From assembly GCF_057098645.1 (NCBI RefSeq), contig NZ_CM169472.1: DNA of 64,000 nucleotides, one strand, 5' to 3'. Shown here in pieces: positions 12,001-15,000 of this stretch; positions within the stretch are counted from its first letter, which is position 1; each line of letters starts with the position of its first letter. Made by a program: the position numbers.

Positions 12001-15000
12001 AACGCCTGGCGACTGCATTGATTACGACCGGATCAGAGATGACATCATGCAGGACGCGGAGAAATTTAATATCAGGCTGGTGGGCTTTGATACGTGGAAC
12101 GCCACGCATCTCAGAACGCAATTACAGGGGGCAGGTTTTGAGGTGGAGCCGTTCCCGCAAACCTACCTCAGATTCAGTCCGGCGGCGAAATCGTTCGAAG
12201 TTTTTGTTAACCGCAGGGTGATTGTGCATCGTGGCGATCCGGTGTTGTCCTGGTCGATGAGTAACGTCGTGATGCAGAGTGACGCGAACGCCAATATCAA
12301 GCCGAACAAGAAAAAATCACCGAACAAGATAGACCCGAGCGTGGCGGCGCTGATGGCGTTTGGTACATTCCAGGCAGAGCATGAGGATTTTGCTTTTGAT
12401 ATAAGCGACAGCCACCGCCAGAAACTGGAAGAATTTAGCGGGGTGTAATGAGGTCAGCAGCATGACAGAAGCCGAAATAACGGGATTAATCCGCCGCGTT
12501 GCCGGAATCAGCCAGCAGGCTGACGAACAGGCCACGCAGCCGGACAGCGTGACAGCCGAAAACTATGCGCGTGTTGTTGCTGAGGTGATGCGCCGTGATG
12601 GTATAGAACTTAATGGCGTGGATATGCGCAACATACGAACCAGAGTTCTTTAGTTGCTGGCCTACCGTCGCCGCGTGGAGATGTATCGGGAGAAGGAGAA
12701 AATAACGTACCACTGGAAGAAGCCGGAGCGGTTGCGGCGGTAACTGGTTGATATTCCCGACGGCCCAAAAATGGGTTGGCTACACCCCTCACAACTACGA
12801 CATTTTCGCAGTTTAATTAATGGTCAGCTTAATCGCTAACCCGCTGATATTTTAGGAAACCTCAATTTGAGGAAGTCGGCGCGGTAACTTGCTGAACTTT
12901 AAGCAAAGCGCAAAATTGCGCTTGCTGAATAATCATTATGATTACGCAGATGATTAAGGAATGACCGAAGGCGGAAATTCGCCTGTGGTTAATGGGGGAG
13001 TTGCAGATCTGCAACTCGACCATGAAACTACGGAAACTACCCGTAGTTTGGGTAGTAAGAGTAACACCCAGATTTTGGGGCTTACTCGTGATACCCAAAT
13101 TTGGGGTATCGGTGGCAACCATAACGACTTTCGTTACGGTTGATGCTTTTACCCCATTGGGGGAAAGGTATTACGATAATCATAACACCTACCGAACAGG
13201 TAAAGCCCACCAGCCTGATTAACGTTTAACCGGAAAAAAATTCCGGTAGGTGGGGATCCCCATATAGACATTAACGCCCCTCATGAATTGGTGTGCTTCC
13301 CCCTGGAAAGATGATCCGCCTGTATATTTCTTGTGTCTATTTGTTCCACGTTGTTTCATACAGTGCACCGAACGGTGTAGTCACTGGTGTAGTCATTTTG
13401 CGATTTTTGGCACTTTTTGTGGTGTTAATTATTTAATTAAATCAATGTGTTATGCGAAATAAGTTATATATAACAGCAATAAATAATGCGAGAATAAACG
13501 GCACGATGATCTCGGCGGCAAAACGGATACCGCAGAGAATAATGACCAGCATTCCCAACATAATGACGATTTTTAGGCCATTGAGCGTGATGATCGGCTT
13601 TGCCATGCTTGTCCCCGTTTTTTCTTCCTTTGCTAATAATAATGTCTTTTTCGCTCCGTCATCATAACGAAAATCAAACCGCTCAGGTAAAGAAGTGAAA
13701 ATATTTTGAGTTAATTCTTAAGCTATGATACAAATCAGGCGTGTTCAACTACCGAGGACAATTATCATCCGCGATGACGAGAAGCAACACTGCGGATAAT
13801 TGTAATATTATGGACAATTTGTTCAGGACGTTATTTTCTACATTTACCCATCTTCGTACCTCATCCACTATCTTGCTCGTAGGTGAGCAGCACTGGCGCA
13901 ACGCGCTTTAGTCCTTTCTTCTGCCAAAGCTTGCGCTAAGCGCGGGGCTTGACCACTTTACTTTGGTTTCGCTGAATTAAGCGAAAATTAAAATAATTCT
14001 CTTGCAGGAGAAGGACAATGTATATTTATTGGATTTTATTAGGTCTGGCTATTGCTACAGAAATTACCGGTACGCTGTCCATGAAATGGGCGAGCGTCAG
14101 TGAGGGAAATGGCGGTTTTATTTTAATGCTGGTGATGATTTCTCTGTCGTATATATTTCTCTCTTTCGCCGTTAAAAAAATCGCCTTAGGCGTAGCTTAT
14201 GCGCTGTGGGAAGGTATCGGTATTTTATTTATTACCTTGTTTAGCGTTTTGTTATTCGACGAAAGTTTATCGCTGATGAAAATTGCCGGGTTAACCACCC
14301 TGGTCGCCGGGATTGTGTTGATAAAATCAGGTACCCGTAAAGCGCGTAAACCTGAACTGGAGGTGAACCATGGCACAGTTTGAATGGGTTCACGCCGCCT
14401 GGCTGGCATTGGCAATCGTGCTGGAAATCGTTGCTAACGTCTTTTTGAAATTTTCTGACGGCTTTCGTCGCAAAATATTTGGCTTGCTCTCCCTGGCGGC
14501 GGTGCTGGCTGCCTTTAGTGCGCTTTCTCAGGCCGTTAAAGGGATCGACTTGTCTGTCGCTTATGCATTGTGGGGCGGGTTTGGTATTGCCGCCACGTTA
14601 GCCGCAGGTTGGATCTTGTTTGGTCAACGGTTAAATCGTAAAGGCTGGATTGGCCTGGTCTTGCTGTTGGCTGGAATGATCATGGTGAAACTTGCCTGAT
14701 GAAGACGCTGCCCGCGCTGTCGGGCAGCGTTTGAACATTATTTTTGCGACAGTTGATCCAGCTTGTCGCGAAAACCGGTAACAGAAATGGCCCGGTTATC
14801 GGCGCGCCAGCGATCTTTCGCGGCAGGAGCCGAACTTTGCACCCCAATTAATTGCCAGCCGTCATCGGTATGCAACATCAGAGGCGAACCGCTGTCACCC
14901 GGCAAGGTATCGCACTGATGTGACATCACCGACGTTTGCGCCCAGCCAGTCACTTCACAGTTTTGATGACTGTACAACGTATCGAGATGATCTTCAGGGT

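What the first reader, a model, noticed from the sequence alone, without database searches (positions are those of the whole stretch)
13372..13396. Tandem GGTGTAGTCA direct repeat near the island end
GGTGTAGTCAC TGGTGTAGTCAT lies about 80 bp inside the right junction. Short direct repeats at this position are typical of integrase arm-type binding sites.
Basis: inference. Interest (0 to 1): 0.35.

Follow-up and report, generated by a model that had tools for sequence, protein, structure and literature searches.

The report
Integrase arm sites of a phage satellite
The short doubled sequence is real and is very probably one of two docking sites for the N-terminal domain of the integrase of a phage-satellite island inserted in the E. 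coli tqsA gene. This is an ordinary, already understood kind of feature, seen here in a sequence version that I did not find described.

Summary
GGTGTAGTCA occurs twice exactly, 12 bp apart (window 13374-13383 and 13386-13395). The pair starts 96 bp and ends 74 bp before the 9-bp crossover block ATAACAGCA (13470-13478). That block is the right junction (attR) of a ~14.6 kb capsid-forming phage-inducible island (cf-PICI, EcCIEDL933 type) inserted in tqsA.

In E. coli genomes with the same insertion, the identical doublet lies in the same orientation 137 bp inside attL and 26-47 bp upstream of the int start.

Related islands at five other chromosomal sites carry the same period-12 doublet on both arms at conserved distances. 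The doublets are the best conserved blocks of attP (19 of 22 columns invariant, against 18 of 74 in the spacer).

Islands with more divergent integrases keep the geometry but change all four units together: TGTGTGGTCAGT and TGTGTATTGC. The motif does not follow the AlpA allele.

The integrase has an arm-type DNA-binding domain (Pfam PF13356; fold matches 3JTZ, 3JU0 and 3RMP). Phage P4's record annotates the same layout as "attP arm sequence repeat".

Integrase binding is inferred, not shown. Verdict: real, correctly interpreted, a new member of a known kind, of low to moderate interest.

The parts
13374..13385 (+). Arm-type unit 1 of the P arm (attR side): GGTGTAGTCACT
   Evidence: Exact 10-mer repeated at period 12. 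Same position in related islands.
13386..13397 (+). Arm-type unit 2 of the P arm: GGTGTAGTCATT
   Evidence: As unit 1. In the P-arm doublet 19 of 22 columns are invariant among 7 islands at 5 att sites.
13331..13362 (+). TTGT(T) array with 10-bp phase, directly upstream of the doublet: TTGTGTCTAT TTGTTCCACG TTGTTTCATA. A second motif class, candidate AlpA or excision-factor sites.
   Evidence: Pattern search found 5 matches against 0.04 expected. The array is also on the attL arm, between int and alpA, and upstream of the capsid gene.
13440..13452 (+). Exact IHF consensus AATCAATGTGTTA (WATCAANNNNTTR), lying between the doublet and the core
   Evidence: 5 matches in the window against 3.0 expected, so the position is suggestive but not significant. 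The same position matches the consensus in L002, L003 and L132, and has one mismatch in L004, L005 and L129.
13470..13478 (.). attR core, the crossover identity block ATAACAGCA; right end of the island inside tqsA
   Evidence: Longest attL/attR identity. The reconstructed attB equals intact tqsA. The circular contig L132 carries attP with this core.
1..515 (+). 3' end of the int gene (last 170 codons); the window starts inside int
   Evidence: Translation. It is 99.8% identical at the nucleotide level to the EcCIEDL933-type int (L003) and 93.8% to the tqsA-type int of L001.
880..1068 (+). alpA, the island's activator and a P4 Vis homologue (62 aa)
   Evidence: Located. The L001 copy matches Pfam Phage_AlpA at 5e-18.
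564..607 (-). TTGTT array of at least 4 units at 10-bp phase (5 in the corresponding L001 stretch), between int and alpA
5867..5890 (+). TTGTT array upstream of the capsid gene
13442..13606 (-). 5' fragment of tqsA (46 native codons) fused to 8 island-derived codons
   Evidence: Translation. Annotated as a partial autoinducer-2 transporter in L001.

Best explanation
The doublet is the P-arm pair of arm-type binding sites for the island's integrase, a P4-family tyrosine recombinase.

Proposed mechanism:
- The C-terminal domains of Int bind and cut at the core, the ATAACAGCA block shared with tqsA.
- The N-terminal arm-binding domain of each Int subunit binds one 12-bp GGTGTAGTYA unit.
- There are two units on the P arm, starting 96 bp before the core. 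This is the copy in the window, which sits at attR when the island is integrated.
- There are two more on the P' arm, starting 137 bp after the core start. This copy sits at attL, just upstream of int.
- That gives four sites for the four subunits of the recombining tetramer.
- A bend between arm and core, probably made by IHF at 13440-13452, would let an arm-bound subunit reach the core.
- The attL pair ends 26 bp before the int start codon, so Int bound there probably also represses int, as reported for P4 and KplE1.

Shown: the sequence layout, its conservation, its change together with Int, the Int domain, the exact junctions, and a circular attP.

Inferred: binding, stoichiometry, the role of IHF, and autorepression.
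For: 1. Four exact co-oriented copies flank the att core: L001 2237, 2249, 16575 and 16587. L211 has the same arrangement.
2. Geometry is conserved in 8 islands of this motif class, at six att sites counting tqsA. The P-arm doublet starts 95-98 bp before the core and the P' doublet starts 135-138 bp after the core start, although the cores differ.
3. Footprint-like conservation among 7 of these islands (5 att sites): 19/22 invariant columns in each doublet, against 18/74 in the doublet-to-core spacer and 1/9 in the core.
4. All four units change together with Int:
   - L129 (Int 65% identical): TGTGTGGTCAGT x2 on both arms.
   - L212 (helper-embedded island): TGTGTATTGC x2 on both arms.
   - P4: GGGGGCAT units.
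   - Within the close group, N-domain SVKYLTSGKL goes with ..ACT/..ATT attR units in 9 of 9 islands. SVRHST(S/N)GLL (SVRHSINGLL in L128) goes with ..AAT/..AAT in 17 of 17.
5. The motif does not follow AlpA. L128 and L129 have nearly the same AlpA but different motifs. L001 and L128 have 60%-identical AlpA but the same motif.
6. Int has Pfam Arm-DNA-bind_3 at 1.5e-18. [quoted passage not shown]
7. The P4 record annotates 12-bp tandem pairs on both arms as 'attP arm sequence repeat'. The P' pair ends 16 bp before the int start codon.
8. PMC10111431 reports the same doubled, two-copy layout for helper-embedded PICIs and suggests the Int arm domains bind it.
9. The circular metagenome contig L132 shows attP directly, with the two doublets 233 bp apart around ATAACAGCA.
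Against: - No binding or mutational data exist for this integrase.
- The attL doublet lies next to the int 5' end, and the attR doublet is only ~230 bp away in the circular form. Part of the agreement between motif and N-domain could therefore be linkage rather than co-adaptation.
- The number of independent lineages is small: about 5 motif classes, and 2 against 3 or more att sites within the close group.
- The doublet sits inside a longer 76-nt imperfect direct repeat (76% identity) shared by both arms, so one ancestral duplication explains its presence on both arms.
- The window's own attL and Int N-domain cannot be seen.
- The IHF match is not statistically significant on its own.
Confidence: 0.8

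Rival explanations
1. The doublet is bound by AlpA, the island's Vis/excisionase-like helix-turn-helix protein, acting as a recombination directionality factor or as a transcription factor.
For: PMC10111431 leaves this open for the equivalent HE-PICI motif. Such factors bind direct repeats in att arms (abstract of PMC7498355). AlpA is needed for induction, and its over-expression triggers excision and replication that depend on int (PMC6092414).
Against: - The motif does not follow the AlpA allele. L128 and L129 share AlpA but differ in motif; L001 and L128 differ in AlpA but share the motif.
- AlpA did not change Pint activity in EcCICFT073.
- The 12-bp period and two-unit arrangement match the P4 arm repeats.
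- A separate motif, the 10-bp-phased TTGTT arrays, fits AlpA better. It is also found in promoter regions, and its variant follows the AlpA allele.
Confidence: 0.07
2. The doublet is mainly a promoter or operator element for int. The attR copy would supply a promoter or operator that reads across attP into int only in the excised circle (state-dependent promoter switching).
For: The attL copy lies 26-47 bp upstream of the int start. Promoter switching of this kind is described for ICEKp1 and ICEclc (PMC13023037). Int autorepression through attL sites is described for KplE1 and P4.
Against: No sigma-70-like match was found on the + strand in either arm. An operator role does not exclude arm-site function; in KplE1 the arm sites are the operator. 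It also does not explain the conserved distance of the attR copy from the core.
Confidence: 0.06
3. The doublet is a neutral leftover of a duplication of the int-upstream segment and has no function.
For: A 76-nt imperfect direct repeat covers both arms.
Against: The doublets are far better conserved than their flanks across islands. All four units changed together in L129 and L212. The same layout is present in P4, whose Int is only 23% identical.
Confidence: 0.03
4. The doublet consists of replication-origin iterons or a packaging (cos) element.
For: It is a short tandem repeat in a non-coding stretch at the end of a replicating, packaged element.
Against: Iteron-like repeats of a different sequence (AAAAGTGGGG) lie next to the helicase gene. 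The motif is shared by islands with different replication genes (helicase, P4-type primase, DUF927) and different packaging modules, but changes with int.
Confidence: 0.02

Closest known systems
Phage P4 'attP arm sequence repeats' (annotated in NC_001609; Pierson & Kahn 1987, J Mol Biol 196:487, cited, paper not held)
   Same: 12-bp units in tandem pairs on both arms, all co-oriented. The P' pair lies just upstream of the int start: it ends 16 bp before it in P4 and 26 bp here. The P' pair starts ~132 bp after the core start in P4 and 137 bp here. The integrase is of the same family, with an Arm-DNA-bind_3 N-domain.
   Different: The unit sequence is unrelated (A/T)TGGGGGCAT. The P4 P-arm pair is ~20 bp closer to the core (77 against 96 bp). 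P4 has two extra single copies. P4 integrates in a tRNA-Leu gene, and its Int is only 23% identical.
Doubled motif tgTGTATTGCantgTGTATTGCa of helper-embedded PICIs (PMC10111431, NAR Genom Bioinform 2023)
   Same: Two tandem units at period 12, with one copy on each side of the attP centre (81 +/- 2 bp upstream and 132 +/- 2 bp downstream), co-oriented. The island family is the same, and I reproduced the motif in L212. The 5' half, GTGTA, is shared.
   Different: The 3' half of the unit differs (TTGC against GTCA). That paper states its motif was not found in other PICIs and leaves the binding protein open. Here other PICIs are shown to have their own versions at the same positions.
Lambda Int arm-type sites P1, P2, P'1-P'3 (Ross & Landy 1982, cited in PMC2951348)
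   Same: A heterobivalent integrase whose N-domain recognises a motif different from the core, on both arms, with bending-protein sites between arm and core.
   Different: Lambda has five sites in a 2 + 3 arrangement, with the P'1-P'3 sites spaced about one helical turn apart (from memory; not checked here). Its N-domain belongs to a different subfamily, and lambda int is not transcribed from within attL.
KplE1 (CPS-53) IntS P' arm-type sites overlapping the intS promoter (PMC2951348)
   Same: The attL arm sites sit in the int upstream region, so Int represses its own gene. This is the model proposed here for the attL copy.
   Different: The motif is different (a conserved TAAA), as is the number of sites. 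Binding and repression are shown experimentally there and are only inferred here.

Membership tests
Arm-type binding sites of heterobivalent tyrosine integrases | A short motif unrelated to the core, repeated in the att arms tens to ~150 bp from the crossover | tested here: met
   GGTGTAGTCA x2 starts 96 bp before the core. The same doublet starts 137 bp after the core start on the other arm.
Arm-type binding sites of heterobivalent tyrosine integrases | The cognate integrase has an N-terminal arm-binding domain | tested here: met
   PF13356 at 1.5e-18. PDB 3JTZ by sequence. The AlphaFold model matches 3JTZ, 3JU0 and 3RMP with probability 1.00 and TM-scores of 0.78-0.89 normalised to the target. 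This was tested on the L001 Int; the window holds only the int 3' end.
Arm-type binding sites of heterobivalent tyrosine integrases | Position and sequence conserved among elements with related integrases even when core and flanks differ | tested here: met
   8 islands at 6 att sites. Invariant columns are 19/22 in each doublet against 18/74 in the spacer.
Arm-type binding sites of heterobivalent tyrosine integrases | The motif changes with the integrase N-domain and not with other island proteins | tested here: met
   Five motif classes go with five N-domain classes, and the motif is dissociated from AlpA. Caveat: physical linkage and few independent lineages.
Arm-type binding sites of heterobivalent tyrosine integrases | Direct binding by Int and a requirement for recombination | not testable with these tools
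   Needs gel shift or footprinting, and att-site mutagenesis.
Arm-type binding sites of heterobivalent tyrosine integrases | A site for a bending protein (IHF) between arm and core | tested here: inconclusive
   An exact IHF consensus lies at 13440-13452, but 5 matches against 3.0 expected in the window. It is only partly conserved in other islands.
P4-type attP layout | 12-bp units in tandem pairs on both arms, with the P' pair abutting the int start | tested here: met
   Compared directly with the annotated P4 record.
Binding sites of a recombination directionality factor (Xis/Vis/AlpA) | The motif follows the factor's allele | tested here: not met
   Comparisons of L128 with L129 and of L001 with L128.
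Replication-origin iterons | Clustered next to the initiator gene and following its type | tested here: not met
   The motif is shared by islands with helicase, P4-type primase or DUF927 replication genes. Other iteron-like repeats sit next to the helicase gene.
Capsid-forming PICI (context of the site) | int, alpA and replication genes plus capsid, protease, portal, connector, HNH, TerS and TerL genes; no tail or lysis genes; about 15 kb | tested here: met
   RefSeq annotation of the L001 island. The layout equals the EcCIEDL933-type island L003 and the description in bioRxiv 10.1101/2022.09.08.507074. Helper-dependent induction was not tested.

The most novel reading that the evidence does not exclude
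The PICI/P4 integrases may offer a natural series of matched pairs of N-domain and arm motif:
- SVKYLTSGKL with GGTGTAGTCAct
- SVRHSTSGLL with GGTGTAGTTAat
- EIKHSKGGKL/FRYR with TGTGTGGTCAgt
- SVRVSKYGCV with TGTGTATTGC
- P4 YLEVSAKGSK with GGGGGCAT

In this reading, 'arm sites plus N-domain' and 'core plus core-binding and catalytic domains' recombine as two separate modules. L004 looks like such a mosaic. That would let satellites move to new chromosomal sites without rebuilding the recombination complex, and it would give a readable recognition code for the DUF4102 arm-binding domain.
Probability: 0.35. Interest if true: 0.45.

Novelty: new member of a known kind. Interest (0 to 1): 0.25.

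Why it matters
It fixes the attachment-site anatomy (core, both arm-site pairs, likely IHF site) for the integrase type used by the model E. coli satellites EcCICFT073 and EcCIEDL933. About 16% of complete E. coli genomes (883 of 5426) carry a related P arm.

This is useful for three practical purposes: mapping island ends, building minimal attP cassettes for PICI-based delivery vectors, and designing experiments on Int autoregulation and excision control.

It does not change how such systems are thought to work.

Tried and rejected
- Scan of genome contigs for GGTGTAGTNNNTGGTGTAGT. It returned only unrelated hits, mostly gut Firmicutes, consistent with chance in 298 Gb.
- Full-text search for the motif and its reverse complement. 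Only unrelated hits such as primers and barcode sequences.
- Rfam search on 12400-13800. One sub-threshold match (TD-1, 22 bits against a gathering score of 64.5); rejected.
- Sigma-70 promoter scans of both arms. Nothing on the int strand, so the promoter overlap stays an inference.
- Constant offset between the window and L001. This assumption was wrong: the window's left 2.5 kb is mosaic. Coordinates were then mapped by BLAST.
- IMG/VR loci. Most contigs start at int, so only some gave arms. They added closely related integrases only, no new classes.
- Papers not held: Pierson & Kahn 1987 and Szwagierczak et al. 2009. Whether P4 or HPI Int was footprinted on these repeats therefore rests on the GenBank annotation and the PDB titles.
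- cos site or small RNA in the hairpin-rich stretch 12990-13150. Looked at briefly and left open.

Full report
**What is there.** Window 13374-13383 and 13386-13395 are both GGTGTAGTCA, 12 bp apart. The full units are GGTGTAGTCACT and GGTGTAGTCATT. Exact tandems of this size are rare in the window: 5 observed against 0.24 expected. Two of the other four are the AAAAGTGGGG doublets beside the replication gene.

**Context.**
- The window is E. coli. Its first 13.5 kb are the larger part of an island with these genes: int (the window starts inside it), alpA, a RepA-type helicase, SSB, a PerC-like regulator, HK97-type capsid, protease, portal, connectors, HNH, TerS and TerL. There are no tail or lysis genes.
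- This is the gene set of capsid-forming PICIs such as EcCIEDL933.
- The island interrupts tqsA. The 9-bp identity block ATAACAGCA lies at 13470-13478 (attR) and at L001 2100-2108 (attL).
- Joining the flanks gives a sequence 100% identical, in one piece, to intact tqsA in other genomes.
- An 11-kb metagenome contig with a 119-bp terminal repeat (L132) carries the circular junction exactly as reconstructed. The two doublets there are 233 bp apart around ATAACAGCA.

- In L001 and L211, which have tqsA insertions with attR arms 99.5% and 100% identical to the window, the same doublet lies in the same orientation. It starts 137 bp after the attL core start and ends 26 bp before the int start codon.
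- The 10-mer occurs four times exactly in 33 kb of L001, only at these places.
- The window's own attL lies outside it. Its left 2.5 kb is a mosaic with no full match among 5426 complete genomes, and its int 3' end is 99.8% identical to the EcCIEDL933-type gene.

**Related islands.**
- Islands with 72-86% identical int DNA sit at roxA/phoQ (EcCICFT073 in L002; EcCIEDL933-type in L003; L127), yifB (L004), abgR/smrA (L005) and cspD/clpS (L006, L128).
- All carry GGTGTAGTYA x2 at period 12 on both arms.
- The P-arm doublet starts 95-98 bp before the core and the P' doublet 135-138 bp after the core start, although the cores differ.
- In an alignment of seven reconstructed attP sites, each doublet has 19 of 22 invariant columns. 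The spacer between doublet and core has 18 of 74, and the core 1 of 9.
- In about 800 kb of IMG/VR loci, every tandem hit lies on the int strand, either just upstream of int or near the right end.

**What the motif follows.**
- L129 is a cf-PICI between rcnR and thiM whose Int is 65% identical. It has no GGTGTAGT. It has TGTGTGGTCAGT x2 at the equivalent places on both arms.
- L212 is a cf-PICI inside a prophage terL gene. It has TGTGTATTGC x2 on both arms. This is the motif published for helper-embedded PICIs.
- P4 has GGGGGCAT units.
- AlpA is almost the same in L128 and L129, which differ in motif. It is only 60% identical between L001 and L128, which share the motif.
- Within the close group, the Int N-domain variant SVKYLTSGKL goes with attR units ending ACT/ATT in 9 of 9 islands. 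SVRHST(S/N)GLL (SVRHSINGLL in L128) goes with AAT/AAT in 17 of 17.
- Linkage inflates this last count, because both arms lie within about 300 bp of the int 5' end in the circular form.

**The protein.**
- Int of L001 matches Pfam Arm-DNA-bind_3 (1.5e-18) and Phage_integrase, and PDB 3JTZ by sequence.
- An AlphaFold model of residues 1-100 (pLDDT 84.4) matches three entries with Foldseek probability 1.00: 3JTZ (arm-type binding domain of HPI integrase), 3JU0 (HAI7 integrase) and 3RMP (recognition of attP substrates by P4-like integrases).

**Known relatives.**
- The P4 record annotates 12-bp "attP arm sequence repeat" pairs at 4174-4151 and 3965-3942 around the core 4097-4078. The second pair ends 16 bp before the int ATG. 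This is the same layout.
- PMC10111431 describes a doubled motif 81 bp upstream and 132 bp downstream of the attP centre in helper-embedded PICIs. It proposes the Int arm domains, or AlpA, as binders.
- P4 Int represses its own promoter. In KplE1 the attL arm sites overlap PintS and mediate autorepression.
- In EcCICFT073, AlpA activates its own gene but not Pint.

**Mechanism proposed.** Four Int subunits each bind one unit through the N-domain, two per arm, and bind the core through the C-terminal domains. A bend, possibly made by IHF at the exact consensus at 13440-13452, brings arm and core together (not significant alone). The attL pair probably also acts as an operator of int. All binding steps are inferred.

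**A second motif.** TTGTT arrays at 10-bp phase sit next to both doublets. They also lie between int and alpA (window 564-607) and upstream of the capsid gene (5867-5890), with 5 matches against 0.04 expected. Their variant follows the AlpA allele: TTGTTCCA or TTGTTTCA in one allele group, TTGTTCG in the other. They are the better candidate for AlpA sites, which weakens the rival that AlpA binds the doublet.

**Verdict.** The feature is an ordinary part of a P4-family attachment site. The specific motif was not found in the literature I could search.

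Noticed in passing
window 564-607 (-), 5867-5890 (+), 13331-13362 (+); L001 2194-2233: TTGTT arrays at 10-bp phase occur on both att arms, between int and alpA, and upstream of the capsid gene (5 matches against 0.04 expected). 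The variant follows the AlpA allele: TTGTTCCA or TTGTTTCA against TTGTTCG. They are candidate AlpA sites.
   Followed up: partly
window 4676-4698 and 4844-4866: AAAAGTGGGGAG(T/C)AAAAGTGGGG doublets (period 13) begin at the end of the RepA-type helicase gene (3276-4676), with related copies about 84 bp apart in L001. They are probably replication-origin iterons.
   Followed up: no
window 12990-13150: A run of four or five perfect or near-perfect hairpins (for example GAGTTGCAGATCTGCAACTC and GATACCCAAATTTGGGGTATC) lies in the 630-bp non-coding stretch before the arm. It is shared patchily among PICIs, including L129 with a different int. No Rfam family matches it and its function is unknown.
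   Followed up: partly
window 12462-12743: The 93-aa ORF that ends almost every island of this family has an in-frame stop in the window (63 aa, 12462-12653). It is intact in L001.
   Followed up: no
window 1-515: The int 3' end is 99.8% identical to the EcCIEDL933-type gene, whose islands sit at roxA/phoQ, but only 93.8% identical to the int of other tqsA islands. The window's island is a recombinant with no full match in 5426 complete genomes.
   Followed up: partly
window 13442-13606 (-): The insertion splits tqsA (autoinducer-2 exporter) after about codon 46. It leaves a 54-aa chimeric ORF and a promoterless 3' part outside the window.
   Followed up: no
L129 16560-16630 and 31758-31860: A cf-PICI is inserted in the thiM leader (which I recognise as the thiM TPP riboswitch; not checked against Rfam), splitting it into a 5' half at attL and a 3' half at attR (core AGAAATACCCGTAT).
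   Followed up: no
L132 (IMGVR_UViG_3300045988_152974), whole contig: This 11,098-bp metagenome contig has a 119-bp terminal repeat that ends exactly at ATAACAGCA. It is a circular or concatemeric form of a tqsA-type PICI and shows attP directly.
   Followed up: yes
L127 15575-16949: In O157:H7 strain ECP19-2498 an IS3-family element sits between the attL doublet and int. It separates int from its upstream region and removes its first codons.
   Followed up: no
L212 16600-31960: A capsid-forming PICI lies inside a prophage terminase large-subunit gene (helper-embedded type). It carries the published TGTGTATTGC doublet on both arms.
   Followed up: partly
L004 compared with L001 and L005 (attP and int): L004 has L001-like arm units and Int N-domain (90% identity) but an L005-like core region and L005-like core-binding and catalytic domains. 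This suggests that arm and core specificities are exchanged as separate modules.
   Followed up: partly
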